Positions 7,288-23,200 of a stretch of DNA of 32,000 bases are shown here, in pieces. Each line of letters starts with the position of its first letter. The first letter of the stretch is position 1. A program made the translations under genes and the position numbers. The notes below the pieces were generated by a model. The model was not told the DNA's origin, made no database searches, and saw only the letters and a list, made by a program, of their open reading frames with translations. Source of the DNA: Halomicrobium mukohataei DSM 12286 (GTDB taxonomy: Archaea > Halobacteriota > Halobacteria > Halobacteriales > Haloarculaceae); contig NC_013201.1 of the NCBI RefSeq assembly GCF_000023965.1, positions 90,001-122,000 on the forward strand, written 5' to 3'.

Positions 7288-7435
7288 GCGCTCCGAGGTT
7301 TGATAGACGAATTTTTCAGCAGTGACGGGGTACCGGCTACTGGTGGTAGTGACGAGCAGTTACCCCCACCCAGACCCACTCGTGTGACGGTAGGCACCTT
7401 TATTAGCGTCATGTAGCAACCAATCCGTAACTGCG

Positions 7436-7867
7436 ATGGGCCGACTCAGCACGTCCACACAATCCGTCGCCTTTCTCGTGATCTTCGCTGCCAGTCTCAT
7501 TATCGGGTTCTTCGTCGCGATGGCGGTCGACGTTCTCGGCCTCTCGCTCGGTCCCGCACAGACCAGTCTGGCTGGCGCGATCACCAGTGTCGTTCTCGTC
7601 AGCGCCACGTTGGTCGCGCTCTACGGAATCCCACCGTGGCGTTCCGAGCGTCCGACTCCCGACGTCGATATCGACGAGTTCGAGACAGCGGCTGGGAGTA
7701 CAGCGGCGACCGACGAAGCGACTGAGACTCCCCAGTCTATCACCTGTCCCAACTGCGGGACGGAGTTCGACCCGTCGGCCGCGTCGGTCGGCGACCGCTG
7801 TGAGGCGTGTGGCGACGGCTACCTGACGAGAGCCGGCGACAGGGTGGTGCTCGATGACGCCGAGTGA
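7436..7867 (+). CDS. Small membrane protein: two predicted TM helices plus C-terminal zinc ribbon
   Basis: Two hydrophobic stretches are present: VAFLVIFAASLIIGFFVAMAVDVLGL and LAGAITSVVLVSATLVALYGI. They are followed by an acidic linker and CPNCG...CEACG (Cys codons at 7745, 7799 and 7808). A TATA-like tttatta lies ~30 nt upstream. The 3' end overlaps the next gene by 14 nt. Confidence 0.65.
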   Translation: MGRLSTSTQSVAFLVIFAASLIIGFFVAMAVDVLGLSLGPAQTSLAGAITSVVLVSATLVALYGIPPWRSERPTPDVDIDEFETAAGSTAATDEATETPQSITCPNCGTEFDPSAASVGDRCEACGDGYLTRAGDRVVLDDAE

Positions 7868-8738
7868 CTCTGTCCCGGAGCGGATCCCGGACGTGCCGCC
7901 GATCTCCGTCGACCTCTCGGCGGAGCTCGACGTGCTGTCGTTCGAGCTCGCAGACAGGATTGCGACGGGAGCCAACGGCGAGGTGTACCGCCAGTCGCTC
8001 TCCGATGGCACCGCGATCGCCGTCAAGGTGCCCGATAGCTCGGGGACGATCACCGACGGACGGATCGATCGCATCCTCGACGAAGCGGAGGACTGGGCCG
8101 AGTTCGAGGCCAACGAGTACGTCGTCAGCCTCGTCGACTACGGGATCGACGACGGCCAGCCCTGGATCGCCATGGAGTACATGGATCGAGGCCATCTCGG
8201 CGACTTCCTCGATCGGGGCGGGGTCCAGTCGCTCTGTCACGGGCTCTGGATCGCTCGGTGTATCGCGAGCGGCATCGAGGAGGCCCACTACCGCGGCACC
8301 GCTCACAGGGACATCAAACCACAGAACGTCCTCTTTCGGACCGTCGAGAACGGCTGGAACGTCCCGAAGGTCGGCGACTGGGGGACCGCCAGCACGCTCC
8401 GCAGTTCGAGTGAGACGATCGGTGAGTACACGCCGCGCTACGCCGCGCCGGAACAGCACGCCCGGCAGGTCGAGACGCGCAACCAGAAGATGGTCGATGT
8501 CTTCCAGTTCGGCATCGTGCTCTTCTTGCTCTTTACCGGGAAGCACCCGTACGGACGGACGACGAAACGGGCCGGCGACGCCGAGCCACCGCACCCCTCG
8601 GAGGTCCGCCCCGGCATCCCGCGGGCGCTCGAAGAGGTGATCCGCCGGTGTCTGAATCCGGAGCCCGAGGACCGATACGAGGACATCAGGCCGGTCTTGC
8701 ACCGTCTCGACGAGTTCTGGGACGCGCTGTGTGGCTAG
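7854..8738 (+). CDS. Short Hanks-type Ser/Thr protein kinase (kinase domain only)
   Basis: Kinase motifs are GANGEVY (Gly loop), IAVKV, WIAMEYMDRG, HRDIKPQNVLF, DWGTAS and YAAPEQ. The start ATG lies inside the end of the upstream membrane-protein gene. Confidence 0.85.
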   Translation: MTPSDSVPERIPDVPPISVDLSAELDVLSFELADRIATGANGEVYRQSLSDGTAIAVKVPDSSGTITDGRIDRILDEAEDWAEFEANEYVVSLVDYGIDDGQPWIAMEYMDRGHLGDFLDRGGVQSLCHGLWIARCIASGIEEAHYRGTAHRDIKPQNVLFRTVENGWNVPKVGDWGTASTLRSSSETIGEYTPRYAAPEQHARQVETRNQKMVDVFQFGIVLFLLFTGKHPYGRTTKRAGDAEPPHPSEVRPGIPRALEEVIRRCLNPEPEDRYEDIRPVLHRLDEFWDALCG

Positions 8739-8789
8739 GCGCGCCTGTGTGCAGTTTTATGGTCGCCGACGCGCATCGTTGGGTCGTCT

Positions 8790-11177
8790 ATGGGTGATCG
8801 AGAGCCGACGCTCGACCGCGTCCGGAGTCCGCCCCGGCGGGACCTCTCTGCGGATCTCGTTCGGTCCGGTGAACTGATCGACCGGGGCGGCAACGCGCTC
8901 GTCTCCGTTGCTGCCCTCTCGGACGAACGGTCGCCCGACCGGATCGCGGTCAAAGAACCGCTGGCTCCGGGGACGCTCGAAAACGACGAGATCGAGCGGT
9001 TCCTCTCGCAGGCCGAGACGTGGGAGACGGTCGACCGCATCGAGCGAGAACGCCCGCGATGGCGGGACTCGGAGCACGTCGTCGGCGTCGTCGACACCGG
9101 CGAGCGCCTGCCCTGGATCGCGATGGAGTACATGGACGGCGGCACGCTCGCGGACCGCCTGGCGGCCGTGGACGGCGGGCTCCCGACCCTAGAGGTGCTG
9201 TGGATCGGCGAGTGTGTCTGTCGCGGCGTCGCGGTCGCTCACAGCCTGGGGATCGCACATCTCGATCTCAAGCCGGCGAACGTTCTCTTTCGCTCGACGC
9301 CCGACGGCGTCTGGGACGTTCCGAAGGTCGCCGATTGGGGACTCGCCCGCGTGCTGGCCGATCAGACCGGCACGGTCGAGGGGCTCTCGCCCGCCTACGC
9401 CGCGCCCGAGCAGTTCGAGCCCGGGGAGTTCGGCGAGCCCGACACGCTGACGGACATCTACCAGGTCGGGACGATCCTGTACGAGCTCCTGACCGGGACA
9501 CCGATCGCGCCCGAGAGCCGCTTCCAGGCCATGCAGGTTGCGATGTCCTCAGACCCCGTGTCGCCTCCCAGCGCCGAACGGCCCGCGCTCTCTCCGGCGG
9601 TCGACGCCGTCGTGTCGAGCGCGCTCGAACGGGACAAGACGGATCGCTACAGCGCGATTCCGGTGATGGCAGACGCGCTCCGGGCCGTCCGTACCGGCGG
9701 CGACCTGCCACCGATCGTCGGCGACCGTCTCGACGGCCGGTCAGAACGAACCGGGGACGCCCGCCCGGAGCGAACAGACACGTCGACGCCGCCAGCCCCG
9801 GAGCGCGACGACGAGCGGGCGGCGACGAACGACGGGGGTGCCGGCGACCCGGAACTGGTCGAGCGAGTGACCGACTACGACAACTACGGGTCGTACTCCG
9901 CCTCGCCCGGCGATCACGACGGCGTCACGACTGGGCGGTCCGACGGGCACGCGGACGACGAAGCGTCGTCGGACGACCCGCGAACCCATCCGGCCTCAGA
10001 AAGCGAATCGATGGCCGACCGCGTCGCCGCCTACGAGAACCACCGCTCGGTCAACGCCTCGCCCGGCGACCACACCGCCGTCGCTGCCGAGTCGACGAAC
10101 GGCGCTCGCGAACCTCGGGCGGCGTCCGGTCTGCCCCCTCGGACCGCTGGGTGGCCAACACTCGGTGGGAACTTCGCACGGACGGGAACGAGCGGCGATC
10201 CCGACGGCCCGGAGAGCGCGGTGTCGGTCGCCTGGACGCACTCGACGCCGGATCTCGTCAAGGTCGCGCCGGCCGTCAGCGACGGGATCGTCTACGCCGG
10301 ACCGGAACGGGGGACTCTGCGCGCACTGGACGCACAGACGGGAGAGACCGTCTGGACGAGCGGACGCCTCCTGGAGACGGCCTCGGCACCGGCCGTCGCC
10401 GACGGGCAGGTCTTTGCCGGCAGCTGGTCCGGTGACCTGTACGCCGTCGATGCTGTGACCGGTGACACGCAGTGGACGTTCGAGACCGGGAGTCACGTGT
10501 ACGGTCCTCCGACGGTCGCTGACGGGACGGTGTACTTCGGCGGCCGAGGCGGCACACTGTACGCGGTCGCGGCCGACTCCGGCGAGCAGCGCTGGCGTGT
10601 CGACTGTGGCGCGATCAAATCGGCACCGACCGTCTCCGGTGGGACCGTCTACGTCGGCACCAAAGCCGAGACCGTCCACGCCGTTGATGCTCACAGCGGT
10701 GAGACCGTGTGGACGTACCAGACGGAGCGACCGGTCTGGTCGTCGCCCGCTGTGGTGGATGGATCCGTGTACGTCGGCTGCTGGGACGATTCGCTGTACG
10801 CGCTCGACCGGTCTACCGGCGACCTCGACTGGCAGTTCGACACCGAGCGTTCGATTCCCGGATCGGTGGCTGTCAGAGACGACTCCTTGTTCGTCGGGAA
10901 CAACGCCAACAACGTGTACGCACTCGATCCCACCAGCGGGGAGAGTCGCTGGCAACAGTCACTCAGCGGGTCGGTCCGGACCGCAGTGGCTGTCCTCGGG
11001 GAGACGCTCATCGCAGGCTGTGCCGACGGCACACTCACCGCGCTCTCGACCACGACTGGCCACCGGCGATGGTCAGTCGATGTCGGTAGCAGTATTCACG
11101 CGTCTCCGGCGGTGGCTGCTGGAACCGTCTATCTCGGGACGGCGGACGGCGTTTACGCGCTGGCGGGCGACGAGTGA
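8790..11177 (+). CDS. Ser/Thr protein kinase fused to a C-terminal PQQ-like beta-propeller
   Basis: The N-terminal kinase has GGNALVSVA, IAVKEP, WIAMEYMDGG, HLDLKPANVLF, DWGLAR and YAAPEQ, and is a close paralogue of 827..2446. It is followed by a ~170-aa acidic linker with no hydrophobic segment. From about residue 450 (WPTLGGNFARTG) there are ~8 blades with VYxGxxxGxLYAxDAxTGExxW. A TATA-like ttttat lies ~30 nt upstream. Confidence 0.9.
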   Translation: MGDREPTLDRVRSPPRRDLSADLVRSGELIDRGGNALVSVAALSDERSPDRIAVKEPLAPGTLENDEIERFLSQAETWETVDRIERERPRWRDSEHVVGVVDTGERLPWIAMEYMDGGTLADRLAAVDGGLPTLEVLWIGECVCRGVAVAHSLGIAHLDLKPANVLFRSTPDGVWDVPKVADWGLARVLADQTGTVEGLSPAYAAPEQFEPGEFGEPDTLTDIYQVGTILYELLTGTPIAPESRFQAMQVAMSSDPVSPPSAERPALSPAVDAVVSSALERDKTDRYSAIPVMADALRAVRTGGDLPPIVGDRLDGRSERTGDARPERTDTSTPPAPERDDERAATNDGGAGDPELVERVTDYDNYGSYSASPGDHDGVTTGRSDGHADDEASSDDPRTHPASESESMADRVAAYENHRSVNASPGDHTAVAAESTNGAREPRAASGLPPRTAGWPTLGGNFARTGTSGDPDGPESAVSVAWTHSTPDLVKVAPAVSDGIVYAGPERGTLRALDAQTGETVWTSGRLLETASAPAVADGQVFAGSWSGDLYAVDAVTGDTQWTFETGSHVYGPPTVADGTVYFGGRGGTLYAVAADSGEQRWRVDCGAIKSAPTVSGGTVYVGTKAETVHAVDAHSGETVWTYQTERPVWSSPAVVDGSVYVGCWDDSLYALDRSTGDLDWQFDTERSIPGSVAVRDDSLFVGNNANNVYALDPTSGESRWQQSLSGSVRTAVAVLGETLIAGCADGTLTALSTTTGHRRWSVDVGSSIHASPAVAAGTVYLGTADGVYALAGDE

Positions 11178-11466: not shown

Positions 11467-12306
11467 ATGCTGGCTTACACAGTGTACTCGGAAGCCGGCG
11501 GGGTCGGAAAGACGACCCTCGCCGCGAACCTCGCGAAGGCCGAGGTTCGGGCCGGTCGGCGCGTCCTCGTCGTCGATCTCGACACGCAGGAGGCGTCGCT
11601 GTCACATCTGCTCGACGTGGCCGACGATCGGAACAACGATCAGGTAGACAGCCTCTTGCGTCACATGATCGACCGTCCGCGAGGGGACTTCTCGGATCTC
11701 GTCCGGACGAGCGAGGGCATCGACATCGTACCGGCTCACAACATTCTCGAATACGCCTCGAAGCACCTGCGCCGACGCGAGGAGGAGGCCGCGGACTTCG
11801 GGGAGTCGTGGAACCCGAACAAGCAACTCCTCCGGGTCCTGCGGGAGGCCGGCGTCCACGAGACGTACGACACGCTGATCGTCGACCCGCCCGCCAGCGC
11901 CGACATCAAACTCCACAACGCGATCCACGCGACGCGCCACGTCGTCATCCCCTTCGAACCCAGCGGCAAGGGGTACGAGTCCGTGCAGGGACTCGACCAG
12001 CTGGTCGGCGGGCTCGAAGACCAGCTGGACATCGAGGTCGGCGTCCTCGCGGTCGTCCCGAACCGCTACAAGGGGATGAACGACCAGGATCGGTTCCTCG
12101 ACGAGCTGGCGGCCGACGGCTGGGAGCTGCCGATCAAGTTCCGCGAGCGGTCCTCGCTGCTGGAGGGGTGCTGGGCCGAACAATGTACCGCATTCCGCTA
12201 TATCGATGTCCACCGGGAGCGCGAACGCGACCACGAACTGGACACCCTCGAAAAGTACGACGAGCTGGCGGCACACATCCGCGAGATGCGGGCGGTGGAA
12301 GCATGA
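11467..12306 (+). CDS. parA: ParA/Soj-family P-loop ATPase (variant Walker A)
   Basis: The N-terminus MLAYTVYSEAGGVGKTTLAANLA carries the Walker A motif. VLVVDLDTQ and LIVDPPAS (Walker B-like) follow, and the size and layout are typical of small partition ATPases. The signature Lys of KGGxGKT is replaced by Ala (codon 11494-11496). Confidence 0.8.
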   Translation: MLAYTVYSEAGGVGKTTLAANLAKAEVRAGRRVLVVDLDTQEASLSHLLDVADDRNNDQVDSLLRHMIDRPRGDFSDLVRTSEGIDIVPAHNILEYASKHLRRREEEAADFGESWNPNKQLLRVLREAGVHETYDTLIVDPPASADIKLHNAIHATRHVVIPFEPSGKGYESVQGLDQLVGGLEDQLDIEVGVLAVVPNRYKGMNDQDRFLDELAADGWELPIKFRERSSLLEGCWAEQCTAFRYIDVHRERERDHELDTLEKYDELAAHIREMRAVEA

Positions 12307-12764
12307 AGCAGGGTTCGACTGACGATCCGTTCGCCGACGACCCCGACGCCGAGCGAGCGGACACGGCCGACGAACCGACCGACGTAGCGGAAGGCGGCGC
12401 TGCCGACCAGTCGTCGTCGAGCGATCTCGGGAACGACGGACGGACGGGCTCGTCACTCGACCCCGAGCCGTCGAGCCAGCAAAGCGGCCAGCAGTCCGCG
12501 GATCGCCAGTCCGAGGATCAGCACCGCCACTCGCTGCCCTACATCCACGCCCGGGACGGGGTCAAGGACGGCCGGACCCAGCGCCCGGTCTTTCTCAGAG
12601 ACGACGTCGAGGCGGGCATCGACGAACTCGTCGCCACGGTGGAAGCCGAGTTCGGCGAGGACGTGTACAAGACCGACGTGACCGAGGCCGCGATGGTCGT
12701 CGCCCAGGAACACCCGGAGCTCGTCGTCGCGGAACTCGAAGCGTGGGGCTACGGCTGGGACTGA
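12303..12764 (+). CDS. Acidic protein translationally coupled to parA; putative centromere-binding partner
   Basis: The ATG at 12303 overlaps the parA stop (ATGA). The N-terminal ~75 aa is a disordered acidic Ser/Gln-rich region. The C-terminal ~75 aa (RPVFLRDDVEAGIDELVATVEAEFGEDVY...) looks like a strand-helix-helix. The ORF-track entry 11808..12764 is the same frame extended upstream through parA and is Arg/Pro-rich there. Confidence 0.6.
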   Translation: MKQGSTDDPFADDPDAERADTADEPTDVAEGGAADQSSSSDLGNDGRTGSSLDPEPSSQQSGQQSADRQSEDQHRHSLPYIHARDGVKDGRTQRPVFLRDDVEAGIDELVATVEAEFGEDVYKTDVTEAAMVVAQEHPELVVAELEAWGYGWD

Positions 12765-12837: not shown

Positions 12838-14145
12838 TCACTCCAGCGCCTCGACGGTCTGCTTGCACGCTGGCGGCACGGCCCGCGCGCCGGCCGTCGC
12901 GCGCACGTATCCCTCGACGACGTCGTCGAGGCGCTCGGGCCGAACGTCGCGATCGAACCGAGCGAGCCGCCAGTCCGCGCTCGTCACCTCCCGGGACACG
13001 TCGCTGATGACGGTCCGGGCGAGCGCGGCGTCGCGACCCGTTTCGAGCGCGGTATCGAGCGCGTCGTAGGCCGTCGTCCGCAGTGCTCGCAGTTCGTCGG
13101 CGCTCTCGACGCCGCCGATCTCGCCGGCATCGATCCGTTCTTCGATCCGCTCCAGCGCTCGAAATCTCGCGATGCGGCCGGTCGCGTCGATGACGGCGCT
13201 GGCCGGTCCGCTCGCTTCCTCGACGGTCGTCGGTCCGGCGTCGACCGTCCGACGGAGGTCGCTGACGACGTTTTCGGCGACGCCCCACTCCTCCGGGGTG
13301 GGTTCCGGTGGGAGGTCGGAGCGGCGCGAGCGAACGTCGGCCAGCAGCGTCTCGGCACCGCTGGTGAGCGCGTCCTCGACGTTGCCGGCGTCGGCGGGCA
13401 GCGACTCGGCGAACTGGCTGTCGAGGTGGCGGGCGTCGTCGAGATCGACCCGCGCCGACTCGACGGTCTTGCCCCACTCGGCGACGGTCAGCAGTTCGCC
13501 GTCGCCGTGGATCCGTGGCCCGTCCATCCGGGCGAGCCGATCGAACGCGTCCTCGATCCGGGCGTGTACCAGCGCCGCTCGGACGGGGTCGGTCCCGAGG
13601 TACGTGTGCTCGTCCCAGAACGCGTGGGCGTTCGAGACGATCTCACCGTGCTCGCTGCGGAGGCGTTCGACCGTCAGTCCTCCGTCGGCCATCGCCCAGC
13701 CGGCGGCCGCGTATCTGGCTCGTTCGCGCGCCTCGCCCAGCGCCGTCAGCGCTTCCAGCTCCGTCCGGGCAGTGCGTGCGTCGTCGAGCGCGTCCGTCGC
13801 GTCGCTGGCGCTGTCGGTCAGGCGCTCGCGGACGTACCCGTTGGGGATGTCGTCGGGTCCCATCGGCGTCGGGAGTTCGCCGAGCAACGCGTCGACGCGC
13901 TCGCGGGCCGTCGTGAGGTGCGACGGCGCGATGTCGACGGGCACCGACGGGGCGACGACCGGCGACGGGATCGACTCCCGGTCGAGGTCGGGGAGCTCGT
14001 ACACGCTGATCTGCTCGTCTGTGTCGTCGCTCAGCCCGCCGATCGATTGGCAGCCGGCGACGGCACCCGTCGCGGCCACGGCGAGCAGCCCGCGACGCGT
14101 CAGGCGCTGTCGGTCTGCTGTGCTCCGTGCGTCCTCGCCCATCAC
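12838..14145 (-). CDS. Tat-signal lipoprotein, helical, function unknown
   Basis: The N-terminus reads DRQRLTRRGLLAVAATGAVAGCQS (twin-Arg plus lipobox Cys). The composition is acidic and halophile-like. The start overlaps the stop of the upstream gene by 4 nt. Confidence 0.7.
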   Translation of the reverse strand: MMGEDARSTADRQRLTRRGLLAVAATGAVAGCQSIGGLSDDTDEQISVYELPDLDRESIPSPVVAPSVPVDIAPSHLTTARERVDALLGELPTPMGPDDIPNGYVRERLTDSASDATDALDDARTARTELEALTALGEARERARYAAAGWAMADGGLTVERLRSEHGEIVSNAHAFWDEHTYLGTDPVRAALVHARIEDAFDRLARMDGPRIHGDGELLTVAEWGKTVESARVDLDDARHLDSQFAESLPADAGNVEDALTSGAETLLADVRSRRSDLPPEPTPEEWGVAENVVSDLRRTVDAGPTTVEEASGPASAVIDATGRIARFRALERIEERIDAGEIGGVESADELRALRTTAYDALDTALETGRDAALARTVISDVSREVTSADWRLARFDRDVRPERLDDVVEGYVRATAGARAVPPACKQTVEALE

Positions 14146-14855
14146 CGGTCACCTCCAGTCGACGTGGCTGTGGCGGTTCGTGTCTCACCGTCACTCCCGG
14201 CGCTCGATCCCCCGCCGCTCTCGGCCGCGGCCCGATTCCGTCTCTGACAGCCGGCCGTGCCGATCGACGAGCCGTAGCCACGCACCTCGTCGGCCGAGAG
14301 GCTGTCCGGAATGCGGATGAGTCGCGCTTCGAAGACGTGGTCGTCGACCTCACAGCGCGTATCGTAGGGGAGCTGGGTGCGCGCGTAGTCCGTCGACACC
14401 TCGTCGGGCTGCCACTCGATCCGACACAGTGCCAGCTCGAAGCAGGCTCGGACCTCGACGCTCTCCAGATACAGCGTCTGGCCGTCGAGGTCCGTCTCCG
14501 ACAGGAACGAGTCGAGCCCGTCGGCGTCGACGCCGTCGGCGACCCTGAGCCGTTCCGCCCGGGCCGGCGTGTCGACGACGCTCCGCGAGTGTCGACGCCG
14601 CTCGCGGTGGGACCCGCGCTCTCGCTCGGTCTCGCCGTCTTGATCGGCGAGCCAGAGCGGTGCCTGATCGGTCGCCTCGCGAACGCGGACCATCTCGGGA
14701 TCCGTCGCGGACCCGGTCCCCGGCGCGTCCGTGTCCATTCCGCCCTCGGCCCCTCTCGTTGCCGTCGACTCGCTGGTCGCGCTGCCGTACCCGCTACAGC
14801 CGGCCAGCGCGGCGGCGACCCCCGCGAACGCGGCGAGGGACTCTCGTCTGTTCAT
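14142..14855 (-). CDS. Tat-signal lipoprotein, function unknown
   Basis: The internal ATG at 14855 gives MNRRESLAAFAGVAAALAGCSGYGS (twin-Arg plus lipobox). The ORF-track extension to 15032 overlaps the kinase gene and is Arg-rich, so I rejected it. Confidence 0.65.
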   Translation of the reverse strand: MNRRESLAAFAGVAAALAGCSGYGSATSESTATRGAEGGMDTDAPGTGSATDPEMVRVREATDQAPLWLADQDGETERERGSHRERRRHSRSVVDTPARAERLRVADGVDADGLDSFLSETDLDGQTLYLESVEVRACFELALCRIEWQPDEVSTDYARTQLPYDTRCEVDDHVFEARLIRIPDSLSADEVRGYGSSIGTAGCQRRNRAAAESGGGSSAGSDGETRTATATSTGGDR

Positions 14856-14919
14856 GCAGTCGCTTGCAGTAACCGACACAAGAGAGCGGCGGTGACTCCA
14901 ATCTCGCTTTGAGCGACGC

Positions 14920-17454
14920 TCACCACTGGTCGGCCAGCACGTCACGGACCCGAGCGGCCGTTTCCGGACGCGCCGCTGGATCCGGATCCAGCGCGGTACG
15001 GAGCAGATCGTCGACGGCTGGAGGGACGCCATCGCGAACGTCTCCCGGCGGGGCAGGGGACCGCTCTCTTTTCTGTACTGCCTGCTCGACGGCGAACGGC
15101 TTCTCTCCCGTCAGGAGTTCGTAGACCAGCGTCGCGAGCTGGTAGATGTCCGTCTTGGCGGGTGGCACTTCACGCGCCCGTTCGCTTTCCGGACGCTGTT
15201 CGGGCGCTCCGTACCCAGGCGTGTACTGCTTGTCTCCGCGGCTCAGTTCGTGTCTCTTCCGTGCGGTCCCCCAGTCGGCCAACTTCGGCATCGACCACCC
15301 GCGACGACGCTGGAGGAGGACGTTCGCCGGTGTGATGTCCCGGTGGTAGATCCCGTGTGAGTGGGCGTGCTGTAGTGCGTCGGCGATACAGACGCCGATC
15401 CAGAGCACCTGTGACACGGGCAGCGATCGCGCCTCGGCGAACGCTCCCAGTTCTCCCTCGTCGAGGTACTCCATCGCGATCCAGGGCTGGGGCTGGGCTC
15501 CCCAGCCGAAGATCGTCACGATGTTGGGGTGGTCGTGGACTCGGCCCCACTTCTGGGCTTCCTCGATGTACGCCGAGAGATCGGCCACGGTCCGACCGGC
15601 CGGTTCCAGTGGCCGCTTGAGCGCGATCGTTCGTGGCGCTTCCGTAGACGCGTTCGCCGGTGGATGCAGCGACGCTTTATGCACAGTCCCCGTTCCCCCG
15701 TGCTGGATCCGGTGATGGGCTTCGATATCGCCGTAGTCGATCGTCTCTGTGAGCCACGGCGTGTAGGCTGTCGCGGACACGACCGGCAACGCAGTCGGTG
15801 CGAGCGGGTGATCCTTGCCGGCGTGTGTCACCGTCGACGGTCCGCTGTGTTCGAGTGCGGCGTCGATGGCCGTCGACACGTCTGGTCTCGACTCGGTCAC
15901 CGCCGTCTCGGCGAGCGCACGACGGGTCGACGGCGTCGACGCTGCCCCCAGCGCCTGTGCGAGCAGTCGCCGCACTCGTGGTACCGACTCGGTCGCGAGG
16001 CGTTCTTCCAGCACCGACGTGACCCGGTCGGGGGTGGTCGTTTCGGAGCGGACGAGCGACAGCAGGCCAGTGACGGCGTCGGCCCGTTCCGTCGATGTCG
16101 CACTCTCACCGGCTCGTCGACAGAGCCAGTCGACGCTCTCGTCGTGTGCTGTGACCTGTTCGGGGAACGCCCGGCTCATCGTCGCCAGTGCCTCGGTCCG
16201 GAGCGGTCCGAAAGCCGTTCGCTCCCCGGTCCGGACCTCCGTGAGGTACTCCAGCGCCGTCGCCACCGCCGACTCGGAGAGTGGTTCGTCACTCGACAGG
16301 CGGGTCAGGAGCCACACCGCGTATCCTCGTGCCCTCGTGTGGCGCTTCGTCGTCGTCTTCGACTCACGTTCCGCGGCCAGATACGAACGGACCTCTTCGG
16401 TGGTGTCGGCAGTGTCGAGCACGTCACCGTGCGCCTCGTGGACCCGTCCGAGCAGTCGTACGACACGGTGGATCGATTCGTCGCGCTGCTCGAGCAGGTC
16501 CACACACTGTTCGACGGCGGCCTCCGAGACCTGTTCGGGGTGGTCGCGAGCGAGCTGGGCGAGTGCCATCGCAGCGTTCGACCGCACGTACCTGGCGTGC
16601 TTTGCCAACGCTCCGGTGTCTTTCGACAGGTGAGCCGCGTCTTTCGCGTCTGCCTCCGTATAGCTCAGTAGCGCTTCGAGTTCGTCTCGGACCGGGACGA
16701 CGACTGACGGATGTGTTCTGCCGATCTGCCAGAGCGATCTGACTGCGCGGTTGACGTTCCGGGGCCGATTCCCGTGGTCGGCCACGACGGCGTGGAGTTC
16801 TGTCGCCGGTAACGCGGCCTCGGGTTCGGAGAGCCCCATGAATCCGAGTGCCCTGAGACCGACGCTTTGCAAGAGGTCGTCGTCGGCCGACGCGAACTCG
16901 CGCAGGCTGTCGGCCGCCGTCGCCATCTCTGCTCGTACGGCGGCCCGCCCCTCGTGATCGTAGTGCCCGAGGTTCGTCAGGGCGAGCACTGCCCGTCGCT
17001 TTCGAATCGCCTTTTGACCCGTCTGCAGCAGGTCGAGGAGCCGTTCGACGACGGTCTCAGTGACGACACTGTCGACGTCGTTCGATGCGAGTCGACTGAT
17101 TACGAGTGCGCCACGAGACCGGACACGTCCGGGATTCGACTCCCCGATCCGTTCTGTGGCGACTTCGGCGATCCGCTCTATGTAGGTCCGATCGGCGTCT
17201 GTCGTGGTGAGCGTCGTCAGTTCGGTCGTGACAGCGCCGTCTTTGACCAGTCGACTCAGCGCCTTCGTTCCGTTGTAGGCAACCGCCGGATCGTCGGCGG
17301 TCGCTGCCTCGATCGCCAGATCAAACGGCTCCGTCTCTCCGTCCGCCGGATCGAACGAGCGATCGCTCGCCAGTGTCGCGAGTGTCTCTGCTCCGGTCAG
17401 TCGCGTCTCCGGATCGTCGCCGTCGAGTTGCGCGTTGATCTCTTCGAGTGACAT
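14920..17454 (-). CDS. HEAT/ARM-like repeat protein with C-terminal Ser/Thr kinase domain (atypical catalytic loop)
   Basis: The N-terminal ~560 aa is helical-repeat-like (DPETRLTGAETLATLA, VRSRGALVISRLA, VRSNAAMALAQLA, VRRLLAQALG). The C-terminal kinase has GGTGTVHKA, IALKRP, WIAMEYLDEG, HRDITPANVLL (encoded 15345..15322), DWGTAR and YGAPEQ. I saw no TM segment. Confidence 0.85.
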   Translation of the reverse strand: MSLEEINAQLDGDDPETRLTGAETLATLASDRSFDPADGETEPFDLAIEAATADDPAVAYNGTKALSRLVKDGAVTTELTTLTTTDADRTYIERIAEVATERIGESNPGRVRSRGALVISRLASNDVDSVVTETVVERLLDLLQTGQKAIRKRRAVLALTNLGHYDHEGRAAVRAEMATAADSLREFASADDDLLQSVGLRALGFMGLSEPEAALPATELHAVVADHGNRPRNVNRAVRSLWQIGRTHPSVVVPVRDELEALLSYTEADAKDAAHLSKDTGALAKHARYVRSNAAMALAQLARDHPEQVSEAAVEQCVDLLEQRDESIHRVVRLLGRVHEAHGDVLDTADTTEEVRSYLAAERESKTTTKRHTRARGYAVWLLTRLSSDEPLSESAVATALEYLTEVRTGERTAFGPLRTEALATMSRAFPEQVTAHDESVDWLCRRAGESATSTERADAVTGLLSLVRSETTTPDRVTSVLEERLATESVPRVRRLLAQALGAASTPSTRRALAETAVTESRPDVSTAIDAALEHSGPSTVTHAGKDHPLAPTALPVVSATAYTPWLTETIDYGDIEAHHRIQHGGTGTVHKASLHPPANASTEAPRTIALKRPLEPAGRTVADLSAYIEEAQKWGRVHDHPNIVTIFGWGAQPQPWIAMEYLDEGELGAFAEARSLPVSQVLWIGVCIADALQHAHSHGIYHRDITPANVLLQRRRGWSMPKLADWGTARKRHELSRGDKQYTPGYGAPEQRPESERAREVPPAKTDIYQLATLVYELLTGEKPFAVEQAVQKRERSPAPPGDVRDGVPPAVDDLLRTALDPDPAARPETAARVRDVLADQW

Positions 17455-17458
17455 TGGC

Positions 17459-17836
17459 TCAGTCGGTGATCCGGTCGTCGGTCACGTCGACTAACAGTTC
17501 GAGTTCGGACAGCAAATCCGCTCCGACGAGCATCTCTCCGGTGTAGGCCGACCGGTCGCTGACGTCGACTTCGACGACCCTCGCTTCGTCGGACACGTCG
17601 AGCAGATCGACACAGACACAGACGATCTCGCGCGTTTCGGCCGCCGAACCCGACCGCGTCGTCACGTCGCCGACGGTACCGGTCTCGCCGATCGAGGACA
17701 GGACGCTCTCGTCGATCGTACTCCGGTCGGAGCCCGTATCGATCTTTGCAGTCACTCGCTGTTGACCCGTGGTACCAGTCACCTCGACGCGCTCGTATCG
17801 CCCGATCACCGTCCGGTCGCCAGCAGTGTCGGCCAT
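17459..17836 (-). CDS. Retropepsin-like aspartic protease (PF05618 'ATP-dependent zinc protease'/RimB-like family)
   Basis: The 125-aa product has VIGRYERVEV...AKIDTGSDRSTID (D-T-G active-site signature) and a C-terminal SDRSAYTGEMLVGADLL...LLVDV, which matches the family pattern as I recall it. Its stop lies 4 nt before the kinase start. Confidence 0.7.
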   Translation of the reverse strand: MADTAGDRTVIGRYERVEVTGTTGQQRVTAKIDTGSDRSTIDESVLSSIGETGTVGDVTTRSGSAAETREIVCVCVDLLDVSDEARVVEVDVSDRSAYTGEMLVGADLLSELELLVDVTDDRITD

Positions 17837-18140
17837 CTCTACGAGATACGTAGCGACGCCCCGGAATCAATCTGTGGATCACTACTGTACTGTAGCGCGT
17901 CTTCCCGACGTTCGGCCGGCGGACGCTCGGGGGACTCGTTCAAGACGAGCTGCCCGACCGAGAGGAACGCCCGGCAGTGATCGACGGGCAACGAGACGCG
18001 TTCGCTCGGGACCCGTTTCTGGCCCTCGACGAGATGGAGGGGACCGTCACCGACGGAATCGAGTGACGCCGCGAGACGACGCGTCTACTTTCACTCCGAG
18101 GCGAGCAGCTTTAGGGCACAACTGCGCTTCTCTCACAGGT

Positions 18141-20213
18141 ATGGACGACGCTGCCGTCTCCGCTCGACGCTGTTCGCCCACGGTCCACGTCCACGACGTG
18201 CAGTCCCTCCTGGAACGTCCCCAGCGAGCCCGCGACCCGATCGACATCGTGATGACGCCCGAGCAGCTCCACCAGCGCAACTGCAAGCGGGCGCTCGCAC
18301 AGCGCAGCCGGCCCCGTTCGTCGGTCCTGTTTCGGACGCCGATCGACGTGGCGTCGCGGGTCCTCTCGACCCACGAGGGCCGAGCGGTCGAGACGCTCGA
18401 CCGGCTCGACCGGCTCCGGCTGTTCCGGACGCTCCTCGACGAGCCGCCCGCGGGCGTCGGGGCGCTCACCACCGTCTACGGCACGGCACTGACCGAGCAC
18501 GCCGAGTCGATCGAGGTCGCTCGCGAGGAGCTCCAGCTCCTGACCGGCGGGCGAGCCGACCGGGCGGAGGCGCTCGACGACGTTCGCTCGTCGCTGTCGG
18601 CGGCTGCCAGTGCCGACACGCGCGCGCTCCGTACCGGGGTGGGTGCTCTCGTCGACGCTCTCGACGAGCGTGTCGCGGCCGCTCCAGCTCCCGGCGCTGT
18701 CTTTCGGGCCTGTGCGAGCGCGATCGAGGAGACCGACGGCGCAGTGTGGTCGGCGACGTTCCCGACGATCGAGCGGATCGATCTCGCTGGCGTCAGCACG
18801 CTCGGCGCGCCGATCCGAGACTTTCTCACGGCGGTCGAGGCGGCGACCGACGTCGCCGTCCACTACTACCTCCGGGCCGGGACCGGTCCCCGGATCGCCC
18901 GTCGGCTGGCTGCCCGGTCCGGGATCGCCGACACCGCCCCGGACCGCGTCGATCCGTCGCCCGACCGCCGGCTCGACCAGCCGCCGCGAACGACCGAGAT
19001 CGCGGTCGAGACGAGACACGACGAGGCCCGCACCGCGGCGGCGATCGTCGACGGGGCGCTCGAAGCGGGTGCCGGCGTCGACGACGTCGCGCTCGTCGCT
19101 CGGGACGTCGATCGCTACGAGCGGCCGGTCCGGCGCGCGCTGTCGACGTACGGACGGCATCCGTCGGTCTGGACGCAGCTCCCGCTGACCCGGACGCTCC
19201 CCTACCGGCTCGTCGCCGCCGTCTGTGAGCTGCTGGGGGCGGCCGCGGCCGACGACATCGCCGCCGACACGCTGGTGGAACCGCTCGCGCTCCAGTGGAT
19301 CGCACCGCGCGGCCGTCGCGACCGCCCGACGCCACCGTCGACGATACACGCGCTCGATCGTGCGCTCGACGGCGCGTCTCGCTCGCGGGTCGGGTGGCTC
19401 ACGGCCGTCGGGAAACTCGACGGCGTCGATACGACCGCACGCGAAGCGGCGGCCGGCCTGCTGAACTGGATCGGCCAGCAGCCCGCCGAGCCCGCGCCAG
19501 CCGACATCTGTTCCGTTCTGGAGCCCGTCGTCGACGCGTTCGAGGAGGGCGTCCTGCCCCGGCGGGCCGCGTCCGACGGGCCGGACTACACCGAGACCGC
19601 CCAGACCGCCCGCGCCGTCGAGCGGGTCGCCGGCACGGACGACGGCGATCACCTCCTTCGCGAGACGCGCGCGAAGTACGCCGACTGGCTCGAACGGGGC
19701 CACCTCGATCCGTCGTGGGACACCGTCCTGACGGTCCTCGACGCGCTCGCGACCGCCCGGCCCGGCCGGCGCGAACACGCCAACGCCGAGCGCATCGACG
19801 TGCTCGACGCGACGGACGCCTGGCTCCGGACGTACTCGCTCGTGATCGCGCTGGGGTTCGTCGACGGCGAGTGGCCACAGCGCCCCCACGGCGAGTTGCC
19901 GGCCGAACTGCGGGCGGCCATCGTCCGGGGCCAGACACGGTCGGCCCGTCAGTTCCCCGTCCGGGGGGCCTGGTCGACAGAGCGCGACCTCGATCACTTC
20001 GCCGACGCGGTCCGGGCCGCCACCGATCACCTCGTCGTCACTCGCTACACCCGTGACGTGGACGGCGTCCGCTACGATCGGTCGCCGCTGCTTGCCCACC
20101 TGGACGCCAACCGCCTCGCGCCCGAGCGGGTCCGTCGATTGCGGGCCGGCGACGCCTCGACGCTCCACGACTGGATCGACGACGGCACGAGCGTGGGGGG
20201 TGGCGGCCGGTGA
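18141..20213 (+). CDS. AddB/RexB-like helicase-nuclease accessory subunit lacking Walker A and nuclease domain (tentative)
   Basis: This is a 690-aa acidic ORF. I preferred the ATG at 18141 (MDDAAV) because the ORF-track start at 17769 overlaps the divergent protease gene and is Arg-rich. The C-terminal HLVVTRYTRDVDGVRYDRSPLL resembles the end of the AddB helicase-like module. I found no GxGKT and no C-terminal PD-(D/E)XK motif. Its stop overlaps the GTG start of the next gene (GTGA at 20210-20213). Confidence 0.5.
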   Translation: MDDAAVSARRCSPTVHVHDVQSLLERPQRARDPIDIVMTPEQLHQRNCKRALAQRSRPRSSVLFRTPIDVASRVLSTHEGRAVETLDRLDRLRLFRTLLDEPPAGVGALTTVYGTALTEHAESIEVAREELQLLTGGRADRAEALDDVRSSLSAAASADTRALRTGVGALVDALDERVAAAPAPGAVFRACASAIEETDGAVWSATFPTIERIDLAGVSTLGAPIRDFLTAVEAATDVAVHYYLRAGTGPRIARRLAARSGIADTAPDRVDPSPDRRLDQPPRTTEIAVETRHDEARTAAAIVDGALEAGAGVDDVALVARDVDRYERPVRRALSTYGRHPSVWTQLPLTRTLPYRLVAAVCELLGAAAADDIAADTLVEPLALQWIAPRGRRDRPTPPSTIHALDRALDGASRSRVGWLTAVGKLDGVDTTAREAAAGLLNWIGQQPAEPAPADICSVLEPVVDAFEEGVLPRRAASDGPDYTETAQTARAVERVAGTDDGDHLLRETRAKYADWLERGHLDPSWDTVLTVLDALATARPGRREHANAERIDVLDATDAWLRTYSLVIALGFVDGEWPQRPHGELPAELRAAIVRGQTRSARQFPVRGAWSTERDLDHFADAVRAATDHLVVTRYTRDVDGVRYDRSPLLAHLDANRLAPERVRRLRAGDASTLHDWIDDGTSVGGGGR

Positions 20214-23200
20214 CCGACGGCGTCCCGCCCCTGGAGGGCGCACAGGACCGGATTCGCGACGCGTTCCTCGCTCACGACCGGGGGCTGTTCGTCCTCGACT
20301 GTACGGCGGGCTTTGGCAAGTCGACGACCGTCGAGCGCGTCGCCGCCGAGGCGCTGGTCGAAGCGGGCGCGCAAGCGGCCGCTCCCGAACGGGGGCTCTG
20401 CGTCGTCTCGTTCTCCCGCGAGGACGCTGCCGGTATCGTTCCGGGGATCACTGCCGCGCTGGCCGCGTTCGCCGACGACGAGCAGCCGACGGCGACCACT
20501 ATCAGCCCCGAGCGTTCACGGCGGCTCCAGGAGCGGGTCCGCCACGCCGACCACGTCGGGACCATCGACAGCATCTTTCGCACCGTCTTCACGGAGATTC
20601 ACGCCGAGTACGGCTTCGAGCAGATGCCGACGGTCGGCAACGACGCGCGACTCTCCTCGCTCCGAGAAGCGGCGCTGGACGCCCTGCGTGGTCGCGAGTC
20701 ACTGACGGCCCGGTTCGACCGTCTCGACGAGGCCTACGGCGACGAGACGGCCAGCGACGGACGGGGGGCCGACGGGCGCACGCTGGACACGCTGCTCGAA
20801 ACGGCCCGCTCGGCCAAGCGCGCCCGCAGGCTCTCCGACGAGCAGTTCCGCGACAGACTCCTGGGCGCGATCGACGAGGCCTTTCCGGACGGTCGCCCGG
20901 CCACGTTCGACGCCGTGGTCCGTGACGTGGCGCGGTTCTTCGACGAGGAGACCGCCGCGGCGTTCCGGCGACGCCACGACGACGAGGCGGCGGTCACGGC
21001 CCAGTCCCGGGCGTGTTTCGACCGCTGGCGTGCGCGCGTCGAGGAGTTCTGTTCGCTCGTGGTCGCCTACGAGACCGAGTACGACCGCCGGTGTCGCGAG
21101 CGCGGCGTGCTCGCCCACCAGGACGTGGCGTACTGGGTCGCCGACTTCTTCGACGAGTCCGGCGACGCCGACGACTCGTTCCGCGAGCGGGTCCGACAGC
21201 GCCACGCTCACGCCCTCCAGACCCTCGTCATCGACGAGGCCCAGGACGTGTCCGTCGCACAGCACGACGCGCTCGCGCCGCTGGTCCCCGACGACGCCCG
21301 CGTCCTGCTTGCCGGGGACACCGACCAGTGTATCTACGCCTGGCGCGACGCCCGGCCGGCGCTGTTCACGCGAGCGTTCGACGAGGGGACGTACTTCGGG
21401 CGCTCCTGGACGCCCCACGAGCGGGCCGACGCCGCACGGACCTATCGGATGCGACCGGACGTCTCGGCGGCCGTCGACGCCGTCTTCGAGACGGTCTTTA
21501 CCGATCCCGCACGCGGTGCCGTACACCGGACCGGCGACGGCTACGCGCCCGTCGAGACCGACCGCGAGGCGACGAGCGAGCCGGCGGTCCACGTCGCGAG
21601 CTACCGGGCGCGGGGCTCTCCGGGGACGACCACGTGGTTCGAGGAGAGCGAAGCAGCGCCGCTCTCGAACTACCTCCACGGTGCGCTGGCCGACGACGGC
21701 TTCGCGGGCCGAGACGCCGACGGCCCGGTGGAGGTCCTCTTTCCGACGCGGACGAACATGCGCTCGCTCGCCGCTCGTCTGGAAGCGAAGGGGCTGTCCG
21801 TCGCCGACGCCAGCGAACTGCTGTTCGAGACCCCGCTCGTCGAACTCGTCGTCGGCGTCGTCGAGTGGCTCGTCGATCCGTTCGACCCGGAGCGAACGCG
21901 CGCGCTCTTCGACGGCGCGGTTCCGGCGGTGACCTGCGACGACGGGTCGACCGTCCGAGAGATCGCTGCCGCAGCCGACTATCGCCTCGACGAGATCGGG
22001 GCCGACGATCGACTCCCGGCCCGCGTCGAGACGTTCCTCGACGACCTCGCCGAACTCCGCGGGCGGCTCGCGCGACGGACGGCCGATCCGGGGGCGCTCG
22101 TCGTCGCGACCGTCGTCGAGACGCTGGCCCTGGGGACCGACCCGTTCGACCAGGTCGACGATCCGCGGCGCTGTCTCGCCGTCCTCGATACGCTCGTCGA
22201 GACCGTCGAGTCGTGGGAGGGGACCGACCGCTACTCGCTGTCCGAGCTGGCCGGCGTCCTCCAGCGGTACCGCGCGTCCCCGTCTCACGGGCCGCTCGTC
22301 CCGGTGCCCGACGACAGCGACTACGACGTGGTGTTCCGGACGATCCACAACGCGAAAGGCGACGAGGCCGATATCGTCTGCCTGGCCGACCTGAGCCGAC
22401 CACTCGGGGTCCACGGCCCACATCGCGATTCGTTCGTGGCCCGCGGTGAGACGCTCGCGCTCGCACCGCCAGCGACCGCGCCGTCGGTTCCCGTCGACGA
22501 ACCCAGCGCTCACGGCGTCGAGTCGGTGCCGCGGCTCCGCTGGGCGACGAACCGCTGGGTCGGGGACGAGCAGCCGCGACTCGGCGGACCGCCGGTGTTC
22601 AGCGAGCTCGCCGCCGCACACCGCGCGGACCGCTGGCGGACGCTGTACGTCGCCATGACGCGGGCCCGGGACCACCTCGTCCTCTCGGTGCCACGGGACG
22701 CGACGAGCCACGGAACGCCGCCACAGGACAGCTGGGTGACGACGATCCGGCGGGCACTCGCTCTCCCCGACTCGCTGGAGCGCGGCCGGATCGACACCGC
22801 GCTCCAGCGACCGACCGGGGAGTACCCGCTGGCGATCGGCTGTCTCGACGTGGCCTACGACGCCAGCGTCTCGCAGTCGAGTCGCCCGACGCCGCGGACT
22901 GCGCTCGCGCCGTCGCCGACTCGGACGGGCCGGACGCCCCGCTTCGTCAACGGCAGTACGCTCTACCCGCTGGCGACGGGACTGGACGAGCACTGGCTCG
23001 CCCACCTCAAGGGGGCCCCGCTCCACAGCGACCGTCCCGCTCCCGACGACGGCCTCCCGCTGGCCTTCGACGCGGTCGGCCCCGACGACCTCGGGACGAT
23101 CGCACACGACGTGCTCACGACCGCCGTCGATCGAGGCGTCTCGACCGCGACGCTGGAAGACTGTGCCGAACCGCTCGCGGGGCGGCTCGACGCCGCTATC

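What the first reader, a model, noticed from the sequence alone, without database searches (positions are those of the whole stretch)
12838..17836. Candidate undescribed module: retropepsin-like protease, HEAT-repeat kinase and two Tat lipoproteins in one gene string
Four co-directional genes are tightly packed on the minus strand. The protease stop is 4 nt from the kinase start. There is a 64-nt gap with no obvious TATA to the first lipoprotein, and a 4-nt overlap between the two lipoproteins.

The string combines three kinds of component. A cytoplasmic DTG aspartic protease of the RimB/PF05618 type is first. An 844-aa protein follows, in which a ~560-aa HEAT/ARM-like solenoid precedes a Hanks kinase. 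Two secreted, lipid-anchored proteins of unknown fold complete it.

I know of no described system with this composition. A protease next to a scaffold-kinase suggests proteolytic activation or substrate processing. The exported pair suggests a link to the cell surface.
Basis: partly seen in the sequence, partly recalled or inferred. Interest (0 to 1): 0.7.

Follow-up and report, generated by a model that had tools for sequence, protein, structure and literature searches.

The report
Protease-kinase pair beside unrelated lipoprotein cassette
The four tightly packed genes are real, but they are two separate units placed side by side on a Halomicrobium megaplasmid: a rare small-protease plus scaffold-kinase pair that recurs in distant salt-loving archaea, and a widespread pair of secreted lipoproteins that normally occurs without any kinase or protease.

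Summary
The window is part of Halomicrobium mukohataei JP60 plasmid NZ_CP039376.1. All four genes exist as described:
- a 125-aa DTG retropepsin-like peptidase;
- an 844-aa protein with an alpha-solenoid and a Hanks kinase domain;
- two Tat-signal, lipobox proteins.

The four-gene "module" is not conserved.

**Lipoprotein pair.** The small protein has no Pfam family; the large one is DUF8262+DUF8264.
- It is a self-standing two-gene cassette found on chromosomes and plasmids across Halobacteria. In 25 of 25 plasmid records with the small gene, the large gene lies directly downstream.
- Only the two Halomicrobium plasmids among those records also carry the kinase and protease.
- A conserved promoter-like upstream element fills the 64-nt gap. 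The same element is present in kinase-less loci.
- In one close relative the cassette is decayed while protease and kinase stay intact.

**Protease and solenoid-kinase.** This adjacency does recur.
- The solenoid family is very rare: 8 clusters among 1.84 billion representative proteins.
- Context was obtained for 4 diverged lineages (34-100% identity, 43-66% GC). In 3 of them a retropepsin-like gene lies directly next to the family member, in different orientations. A second, STK539-type kinase is often adjacent too.

**Verdict.** The string is a composite. An undescribed protease-kinase pair of unknown function sits next to an unrelated lipoprotein cassette in a kinase-rich variable island.

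The parts
17459..17836 (-). Unit A, gene 1: cytoplasmic retropepsin-like (clan AA) aspartic peptidase, 125 aa. It is a single lobe with a DTGS motif at residues 33-36 and a C-terminal VGADLL motif.
   Evidence: ORF. PF13650 scores 35.3 bits, above its cut-off. D33/T34/G35 are invariant and G105/D107/L109 nearly invariant. The profile hits 9g58/9g59, 2pma and Ddi1 RVP domains.
17863..17877 (-). Conserved upstream element CCACAGATTGATTCC, 27-41 nt before the protease ATG. It is a candidate promoter (TATA-like TTGATT) for the protease-kinase bicistron.
   Evidence...CACA(G/T)TTGATTC... lies at the same distance in LC1Hm, L010, L012 and L018, although the upstream genes differ. Its function is inferred, not shown.
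15859..17454 (-). Unit A, gene 2, N-terminal part: degenerate HEAT/ARM-like alpha-solenoid (aa 1-532) of the 844-aa kinase.
   Evidence: AF2 predicts about 30 helices, mostly at pLDDT >85. Foldseek hits the designed armadillo protein 4rv1. HEAT_2 scores 27.8 bits. BLASTP to the canonical HEAT repeats of the L007 1185-aa kinase gives E 1e-5. The family is rare: 8 clusters in 1.84e9.
15784..15858 (-). Predicted disordered linker (aa 533-557) between solenoid and kinase. It is a candidate processing site.
   Evidence: pLDDT is below 50 for residues 533-557. Cleavage here is pure inference.
14920..15732 (-). Unit A, gene 2, C-terminal part: Hanks-type Ser/Thr kinase domain (aa 575-844) plus stop codon.
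   Evidence: PF00069 scores 93.5 bits. K613, D706, N711 and D727 are invariant. Foldseek to PknB gives TM 0.82.
14856..14919 (-). 64-nt spacer. It carries the lipoprotein cassette's own conserved upstream element: CTCAAAG..GATTGGAGTCACC..CTCTTGTG, the last part being TATA-like in relatives (ATATTGTA).
   Evidence: Alignment of 8 loci, including three that have no kinase upstream (L036, L031, L033).
14142..14855 (-). Unit B, gene 1: small Tat-signal lipobox protein (lipoS, 237 aa) with four conserved Cys. It has no Pfam family.
   Evidence: R3, R4, C20, C138, C144, C168 and C203 are conserved. In 25 of 25 plasmid records it lies directly upstream of a lipoL homologue.
12838..14145 (-). Unit B, gene 2: large Tat-signal lipobox protein (lipoL, 434/435 aa), DUF8262+DUF8264, with an all-alpha mature domain.
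   Evidence: Precomputed PF26790/PF26793 on the identical protein and on 120 homologues. AF2 pLDDT is 87.5 with 12 long helices. No PDB fold match: best E 0.07, TM below 0.2.

Best explanation
The string is a lineage-specific juxtaposition of two independent units in a variable, kinase-rich island of a Halomicrobium megaplasmid.

**Unit A (17836-14920).** This is a bicistron with its own upstream element.
- The first gene encodes a homodimer-type retropepsin-like aspartic peptidase.
- The second, separated by 4 nt and probably translationally coupled, encodes a cytoplasmic kinase. A ~530-aa HEAT/ARM-like solenoid is tethered by a ~25-aa disordered linker to a catalytically competent Hanks kinase domain.
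- The pairing is a conserved functional association. Often a second kinase of the STK539/PQQ type is part of it.
- Most likely mechanism (inferred, not shown): the solenoid is a protein-binding platform that recruits a ligand or substrate. The peptidase acts on the same complex, either cleaving the kinase at the exposed linker to release or activate the catalytic domain, or cleaving a solenoid-bound, phosphorylated client. Proteolysis and phosphorylation would then be coupled in one signalling or conflict response.

**Unit B (14919-12838).** This is a separate cassette with its own promoter-like element.
- It has two translationally coupled genes. One encodes a Cys-rich small Tat lipoprotein, the other an all-helical large Tat lipoprotein (DUF8262+DUF8264).
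- Both would be exported folded and lipid-anchored on the outer face of the membrane.
- The pair is conserved throughout Halobacteria and most likely forms a heterodimeric cell-envelope complex. Nothing links it specifically to kinases.
For: **Unit B is independent.**
- tblastn against plasmids found lipoL in 29 records and lipoS in 25. In all 25 the pair is adjacent and co-directional.
- The HEAT region was found in only 2 records and the protease in 3.
- Neighbours of the pair are unrelated from locus to locus: RdfA/SMC-like, the hut operon, HiPIP/P-type ATPase, 4HBT thioesterase, an ABC sugar transporter, ParA-DUF7970.
- The upstream element is shared with kinase-less loci.
- In L012/L013/L042 lipoS is frameshifted and lipoL is deleted, while the protease (125 aa) and kinase (845 aa) are intact.

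**Unit A is a real pair.**
- The 4-nt gap is kept in JP60, LC1Hm, L010 and L012-14 even though the upstream flanks differ.
- Distant family members show the same association. In L040 the order is STK315, then a 114-aa protease overlapping an 839-aa solenoid-kinase. In L038/L044 a 119-aa DTGA protein followed by a 610-aa kinase lies divergent from an 847-aa solenoid-kinase.
- The 62% protease orthologue in L015 sits between a cpn60-like fragment and an STK539-type kinase.
- GC content ranges from 43 to 66% across these loci.
- As a control, 127 kb of lipoprotein loci contain no retropepsin hit.

**Catalytic competence.**
Against: - The 51% orthologue of the kinase (L007) has no directly adjacent protease. 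The nearest retropepsin-like gene is 5.4 kb away. It is co-oriented with an IetA-like AAA ATPase and convergent with a different, canonical HEAT-kinase.
- Protease relatives in Natrinema, Halorarius and Nitrososphaerales have no kinase within 10 kb. The link is therefore a property of the solenoid-kinase family, not of the protease family.
- Context was obtained for only 4 diverged lineages of the kinase family. Five further clusters (P0129, P0130, P0132-P0134) could not be examined.
- There is no oligo-T terminator between the kinase and lipoS, and the TATA-like box is degenerate in the window (CTCTTGTG). Read-through into the cassette cannot be excluded.
- The catalytic loop reads HRDITPAN. 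It lacks the Lys of HRDLKPxN, so activity is not guaranteed.
- No expression, interaction or cleavage data exist.
Confidence: 0.72

Rival explanations
1. One reading: all four genes form one operon-encoded system. A protease-regulated scaffold-kinase is functionally coupled to a surface-exposed lipoprotein pair, for example for envelope sensing or for phosphorylation-controlled export.
For: The genes are co-directional with tight spacing, and no oligo-T terminator lies in the 64-nt gap. The kinase-lipoS junction (59-64 nt) is retained in all relatives at 70% identity or above, even though the outer flanks differ.
Against: - The junction is seen only within one shallow clade, which fits a single ancestral juxtaposition.
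- More than 30 lipoS-lipoL loci outside that clade lack the kinase and protease.
- Kinase homologues at 34-51% identity lack the lipoproteins.
- The cassette is decayed in L012/L013.
- The cassette's own upstream element is conserved in the gap.
Confidence: 0.08
2. Unit A is an anti-virus or anti-plasmid defence (conflict) module. The solenoid would sense an invader protein, and kinase and protease would act as effectors, in the manner of single-gene kinase defences (PD-T4-6, Stk2) or ATPase-protease pairs (IetAS).
For: - The pair sits in a variable island with a restriction endonuclease, Fic, TnpB and an AddB-like/UvrD-like pair. LC1Hm has an integrase inserted beside it.
- Relatives lie beside IetA-like AAA ATPases, with E 1e-32 to 1e-37.
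- The family is patchy and rare, with shuffled gene order.
- The kinase domain matches PD-T4-6 and MAD6 models at 105-135 bits.
Against: - The PADLOC and NCBIfam hits cover only the generic kinase domain and are far below the equivalog cut-offs (105 bits against 460).
- The other kinases in the window score equally well.
- The solenoid has no PADLOC hit, and the protease has only E 1e-3 to PDC-M08B.
- No infection data exist.
Confidence: 0.22
3. There is no functional link at all. Protease and kinase are neighbours only because kinase-rich islands shuffle a small pool of genes, and every adjacency is historical accident.
For: L007 breaks the adjacency. Protease relatives elsewhere have no kinases nearby. 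Gene order in the islands is clearly fluid.
Against: Adjacency is seen in three deeply diverged lineages, in different orientations, with overlap or a 4-nt gap in two of them. Retropepsin genes are otherwise absent from 127 kb of control loci.
Confidence: 0.15

Closest known systems
Bacterial retropepsin-like peptidases of the RimB/Rlo type (PF05618; P. aeruginosa RloA/RloA2, PMC12239564; structures 9g58/9g59) and the Ddi1 RVP domain
   Same: All are single-lobe DTG aspartic peptidases of about 110-130 aa with a C-terminal hhGxDxL motif. These are the best PDB and NCBIfam hits.
   Different: The window protein is below the PF05618 and RloA cut-offs. It has no signal peptide, whereas the Rlo enzymes are secreted. 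It has no RimK ATP-grasp partner. Its partner here is a solenoid-kinase.
Hanks-type Ser/Thr kinases with repeat sensor domains (M. tuberculosis PknB, PknD beta-propeller, PknG TPR; the PQQ-propeller kinases in this same window)
   Same: The kinase fold matches PknB with TM 0.82 and the catalytic K/D/N/D residues are present. The plan is the same: a repeat domain plus a kinase domain.
   Different: The repeat domain is N-terminal and is a cytoplasmic, degenerate HEAT/ARM solenoid belonging to a very rare family. There is no transmembrane segment. The catalytic loop is HRDITPAN. The kinase is paired with a protease.
Kinase or protease anti-phage systems (PD-T4-6, MADS MAD6, IetAS)
   Same: The setting is a variable island. 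The kinase domain is similar to PD-T4-6 and MAD6. IetA-like ATPases lie beside relatives, and in L007 one sits directly upstream of a retropepsin gene.
   Different: No defining partner genes are present in the window. All scores are generic kinase-domain similarity, and defence activity is untested.
Haloarchaeal Tat lipoproteins (general class; own knowledge of Haloferax Tat/lipobox substrates) and Pfam DUF8262/DUF8264
   Same: The twin-arginine motif and lipobox Cys are present. lipoL is a member of DUF8262+DUF8264.
   Different: No function or structure is known for this pair. The lipoL model has no PDB fold match.

Membership tests
Clan AA retropepsin-like aspartic peptidase (PF13650) | Pfam score above the gathering threshold | tested here: met
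   35.3 bits against a cut-off of 24.3
Clan AA retropepsin-like aspartic peptidase (PF13650) | Catalytic D-T/S-G motif and C-terminal hydrophobic-Gly-x-D-x-L motif in a ~100-130-aa single lobe | tested here: met
   D33-T34-G35 are invariant and G105/D107/L109 nearly invariant in 11 sequences
Clan AA retropepsin-like aspartic peptidase (PF13650) | Homodimerisation and proteolytic activity | not testable with these tools
   Needs biochemistry
RimB/Rlo family (PF05618; NF052262/NF052263) | Score above the curated cut-off | tested here: not met
   PF05618 scores 21.2 against 27. RloA2 scores 33 against 250. Only the C-terminal half aligns.
Hanks-type (eukaryote-like) Ser/Thr protein kinase | Pkinase domain with catalytic Lys, the HRD Asp, the catalytic-loop Asn and the DFG-type Asp | tested here: met
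   PF00069 scores 93.5 bits. K613, D706, N711 and D727 are invariant. Foldseek to PknB gives TM 0.82. Deviations: DWG replaces DFG, and Thr replaces the Lys of HRDLKPxN.
HEAT/ARM alpha-solenoid | Tandem helical-hairpin repeats forming a superhelix | tested here: met
   HEAT_2 is marginal at 27.8 against 27.7. The AF2 model is all-helical over residues 1-532. Foldseek hits a designed armadillo protein over 527 columns. BLASTP to canonical HEAT repeats gives E 1e-5.
Tat-exported lipoproteins | Twin-arginine motif, hydrophobic stretch and lipobox Cys | tested here: met
   lipoS has NRRESL...LAGC and lipoL has TRRGLL...VAGC. The RR pair and the Cys are invariant. Export and lipidation were not tested.
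DUF8262 + DUF8264 (PF26790, PF26793) | Pfam assignment for lipoL | tested here: met
   Precomputed hits on the 100%-identical protein P0008 and on all 120 listed homologues. These families are absent from the local Pfam copy.
   The four occur together only in relatives at 70% identity or above.
Protease + solenoid-kinase gene pair | Adjacency retained in diverged lineages | tested here: met
   3 of 4 lineages show direct adjacency (window clade, L038/L044, L040). L007 shows it only at 5.4 kb.
Known defence systems (PD-T4-6, MADS, IetAS) | Specific model hits beyond the generic domain, plus the defining partner genes | tested here: inconclusive
   Only kinase-domain similarity was found. The solenoid has no hit. 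No partner genes lie in the window.

The most novel reading that the evidence does not exclude
Retropepsin-like peptidase plus HEAT/ARM-solenoid Hanks kinase is the core of a previously undescribed archaeal system. It often comes with a second STK539/PQQ-type kinase and a thermosome (cpn60)-like fragment. In this system regulated proteolysis and phosphorylation would be coupled. It could be an invader-sensing conflict system carried on haloarchaeal megaplasmids and variable islands.
Probability: 0.3. Interest if true: 0.7.

Novelty: new variant of a known kind. Interest (0 to 1): 0.4.

Why it matters
Hanks-type kinases are abundant but almost unstudied in haloarchaea, and retropepsin-like peptidases in prokaryotes have only just begun to be characterised. 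A conserved, translationally coupled protease-kinase pair would be a compact, testable case of proteolysis-gated phospho-signalling, or of immunity, in archaea.

The negative result matters as well. Tight spacing and shared orientation alone wrongly suggested a four-component system. The lipoprotein pair should be studied as a separate, pan-haloarchaeal envelope cassette.

Tried and rejected
1. The word-indexed protein search with the solenoid gave only 3 clusters. With the protease it gave only 4. This was too shallow, so it was supplemented by the exhaustive HMMER search.
2. The genome-contig scan with the protease alignment returned only 11 loci, found with one pattern. None had kinases.
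3. The metagenome scan with the solenoid alignment returned only 4 loci. Three were already known.
5. The fold search of lipoL against the PDB gave no meaningful match.
lipoS therefore has no model.
7. PADLOC, NCBIfam and Pfam gave nothing for lipoS or for the solenoid.
8. Literature searches for DUF8262/8264, for haloarchaeal HEAT-kinases and for protease-kinase conflict systems found nothing specific.
9. Rfam found nothing in the window.
10. The sigma-70 promoter and terminator scan is uninformative for an archaeon.
11. I considered that the genes upstream of the protease in relatives (222 aa + 407 aa) might be a second lipoprotein pair, and rejected it. The 407-aa protein is a PQQ beta-propeller.
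Full report
**Source and observation**

The window matches Halomicrobium mukohataei JP60 plasmid unnamed1 (NZ_CP039376.1, 221,861 bp) at 100% identity. It matches plasmid pLC1Hm-01 of Halomicrobium sp. LC1Hm at 92%. RefSeq annotates the same four minus-strand CDS: an aspartyl protease family protein, a serine/threonine-protein kinase and two hypothetical proteins.

The ORFs are at 17459-17836, 14920-17454, 14142-14855 and 12838-14145. The spacings are:
- 4 nt between the protease stop and the kinase ATG;
- 64 nt between the kinase stop and the lipoS ATG;
- a GTGATG junction between lipoS and lipoL. This is a 4-nt overlap from the GTG, or a 1-nt overlap from the ATG. The ATG is what homologues and RefSeq use.

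**What the four proteins are**

*Protease.*
- It passes PF13650 but not PF05618.
- D33-T34-G35 is invariant and the C-terminal Gly-x-Asp-x-Leu motif is nearly invariant.
- A profile of it and its relatives hits PF05618-type structures (9g58/9g59, 2pma) and Ddi1 retropepsin domains.
- It has no signal peptide.

*Kinase.*
- The 844-aa protein has a Pkinase domain of 93.5 bits.
- K613, D706, N711 and D727 are invariant in nine family members.
- Its catalytic loop reads HRDITPAN and its DFG equivalent is DWG.
- The AlphaFold2 model (9-sequence alignment, pLDDT 83.3) gives about 30 helices over residues 1-532, a disordered linker at 533-557 and a kinase domain from 575.
- Foldseek matches the kinase to PknB (TM 0.82) and the N-terminal part to a designed armadillo-repeat protein.
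- The sequence-level HEAT signal is marginal. It is supported by a BLASTP match to canonical HEAT repeats of a neighbouring kinase in L007.

*Lipoproteins.*
- Both downstream proteins have twin-arginine motifs and a lipobox Cys that are invariant across homologues.
- lipoL is DUF8262+DUF8264 according to the precomputed Pfam hits.
- Its model (pLDDT 87.5) is an all-helical bundle with no PDB match.
- lipoS has four conserved Cys and no family.

**The lipoprotein pair is an independent cassette**

tblastn against 72,556 plasmids finds lipoL in 29 records and lipoS in 25 records. The genera are Haloarcula, Haloferax, Halorussus, Halolamina, Halarchaeum, Haloprofundus, Haloplanus and Halomicrobium. 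In all 25 records with lipoS, a lipoL hit lies directly downstream on the same strand. The solenoid region is found only in the two Halomicrobium plasmids. The protease is found only in those two plus one Natrinema record.

Annotated neighbourhoods of the pair are unrelated to one another:
- RdfA and an SMC-like protein in Haloarcula pHH406 and pNG700;
- the hut operon and a second, paralogous pair in Halolamina;
- HiPIP and a P-type ATPase in Haloferax volcanii pHV4.

The large database gives 183 lipoL homologues, many on chromosomes of 2-3.5 Mb. In three further contexts the ~240-aa partner precedes lipoL with a 1-nt overlap, and no kinase or protease is near. In L036/L037 the pair (59% identity) lies beside ParA-DUF7970, as in the window, but again without kinase or protease.

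The about 65 nt upstream of lipoS is conserved in both kinase-linked and kinase-less loci. It reads CTCAAAAC, then about 8 nt, then (A/G)GTCATCAC, then a TATA-like ATATTGTA about 25-32 nt before the ATG. In the window this element fills the 64-nt gap right up to the kinase stop codon. The cassette therefore brought its own control region. The window's TATA-like box is degenerate (CTCTTGTG) and there is no oligo-T terminator, so some read-through cannot be excluded.

**How far the four-gene string extends**

The solenoid region has three clusters in the word-indexed search, at 91, 70 and 51% identity. In the exhaustive search of 1.84 billion representatives it has eight clusters with E below 1e-30.

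Relatives at 70% identity or above keep protease, kinase, lipoS and, where the contig reaches far enough, lipoL. These are LC1Hm, L010, and L035 with L018/L019. The same 59-64-nt junction is present in each. This fits a single ancestral juxtaposition.

Within that same clade, L012/L013/L042 have a frameshifted lipoS and have lost lipoL, DUF7970 and ParA. Protease and kinase are intact there. At 51% identity (L007) and at 34-37% identity (L038, L040) no lipoproteins are present.

**The protease-kinase link survives the test**

- In L040 (63% GC) the order is a 315-aa kinase, then a 114-aa PF13650 protease, then an 839-aa solenoid-kinase. The protease and the solenoid-kinase overlap by 8 nt.
- In L038/L039/L044 (43% GC) a 119-aa protein with KTDTGARRT and IGRDVL motifs lies 102 nt from an 847-aa solenoid-kinase, in the divergent orientation. 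A 610-aa kinase with wHTH domains follows it.
- In L015 (51% GC) the 62% protease orthologue lies between a cpn60-like fragment and an STK539-type kinase. The STK539 / cpn60-fragment pair also exists in the window at 827-3276.
- L007 (48% GC) is the exception. The 51% kinase orthologue has no adjacent protease. A retropepsin-like gene lies 5.4 kb away. It is downstream of an IetA-like AAA ATPase and convergent with a 1185-aa canonical HEAT-kinase.

Two observations bound the link. Protease relatives in Natrinema, Halorarius and Nitrososphaerales have no kinases within 10 kb. And 127 kb of lipoprotein loci contain no retropepsin gene at all. Adjacency in three of four deeply diverged lineages, in different orientations, is therefore unlikely to be chance or mere descent.

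A conserved CACA(G/T)TTGATTC element lies 27-41 nt upstream of the protease ATG in the close relatives, despite different upstream genes. It is a candidate promoter for the bicistron.

**Mechanism**

*Shown:*
- the domain content;
- intact catalytic motifs;
- a cytoplasmic location for Unit A, from the absence of signal peptides;
- export signals on Unit B;
- the gene-order statistics above.

*Inferred:*
- Protease and kinase are co-translated and act together.
- The solenoid is the recognition or scaffold surface.
- The exposed 25-residue linker is the most obvious place for regulatory cleavage. Alternatively, both enzymes act on a solenoid-bound client.

*Setting.* The neighbourhood contains five Hanks kinases, a cpn60 fragment, a restriction endonuclease, Fic, TnpB and an AddB-like/UvrD-like pair. 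LC1Hm carries an integrase at the same spot, and relatives lie beside IetA-like ATPases. This is compatible with a conflict or defence role. However, the PADLOC and NCBIfam hits are generic kinase-domain similarity, so this remains a minority reading.

*Unit B.* The most economical reading is a heterodimeric, lipid-anchored envelope complex of unknown activity.

**Comparison and novelty**

No paper in the held library describes DUF8262/DUF8264, haloarchaeal HEAT-kinases or a retropepsin-kinase pair. RloA-type retropepsins are secreted Pseudomonas enzymes and are only distant relatives.

The four-gene module as proposed is not a real unit. What remains is a new association of known domain families, namely a rare solenoid-kinase with a retropepsin partner. 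That is worth a modest score.

**Verdict**

- Observation: confirmed.
- Interpretation: partly supported (protease-kinase yes; lipoproteins no).
- Interest: 0.4.

Noticed in passing
window 1-11177 (STK cut at the window start; STK539 827-2446; STK294 7854-8738; STK-PQQ 8790-11177) plus 14920-17454: There are five Hanks-type kinase genes within about 17 kb, two of them fused to PQQ beta-propellers. The sub-unit hyp143-STK294-STK_PQQ795 is kept in the metagenomic relative L012. Gene content is conserved across relatives but gene order is shuffled.
   Followed up: partly
window 2440-3276 (-), overlapping the end of STK539 (827-2446, +): A 278-aa thermosome/cpn60-like fragment (PF00118, C-terminal part only) is convergent with a kinase and overlaps it. 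The same kinase/cpn60-fragment pair lies next to the protease orthologue in L015.
   Followed up: partly
L007 8670-11024 (-) and L040 6802-8777 (-): IetA-like AAA ATPases (PADLOC E 1e-32 to 1e-37, 46% identical to each other) lie beside distant solenoid-kinase loci. In L007 the ATPase sits directly upstream of a retropepsin-like gene. This is an ATPase + protease arrangement reminiscent of IetAS, but with a different protease.
   Followed up: partly
window 18141-23638 (+): A 690-aa protein with no family hit is followed by a 1142-aa UvrD/AddA-like helicase, with a 4-nt overlap. The pair is divergent from the protease. In LC1Hm a phage-type integrase is inserted between this pair and the protease, which marks a recombination hot spot.
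   Followed up: no
window 3613-4830 (+), 5352-6392 (+), 6593-7147 (+): Genes for a TnpB family RNA-guided endonuclease, a restriction endonuclease and a Fic family protein lie between the kinase genes. TnpB and Fic are absent from the LC1Hm plasmid at this position.
   Followed up: no
P0129 and P0130 (no locus fetched): Two members of the solenoid family (583 and 597 aa) lack the kinase domain and end instead in a CxxC...CxxC zinc-ribbon-like motif. The solenoid is therefore a mobile module in its own right.
   Followed up: no
L004 9198-11107 (-), Halolamina pCBA1230-01: A second, diverged lipoS-lipoL-like pair (427 aa + 209 aa; 33% identity to lipoL) lies convergent to the first pair. The cassette duplicates within replicons.
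   Followed up: no
window 11467-12764 (+) and L036 8567-9819: ParA plus a DUF7970 protein (a partition-like pair) lies next to the lipoprotein cassette, both in the window and in a 59%-identity relative that lacks the kinase. The lipoprotein cassette may therefore belong to the plasmid backbone near the partition locus.
   Followed up: partly
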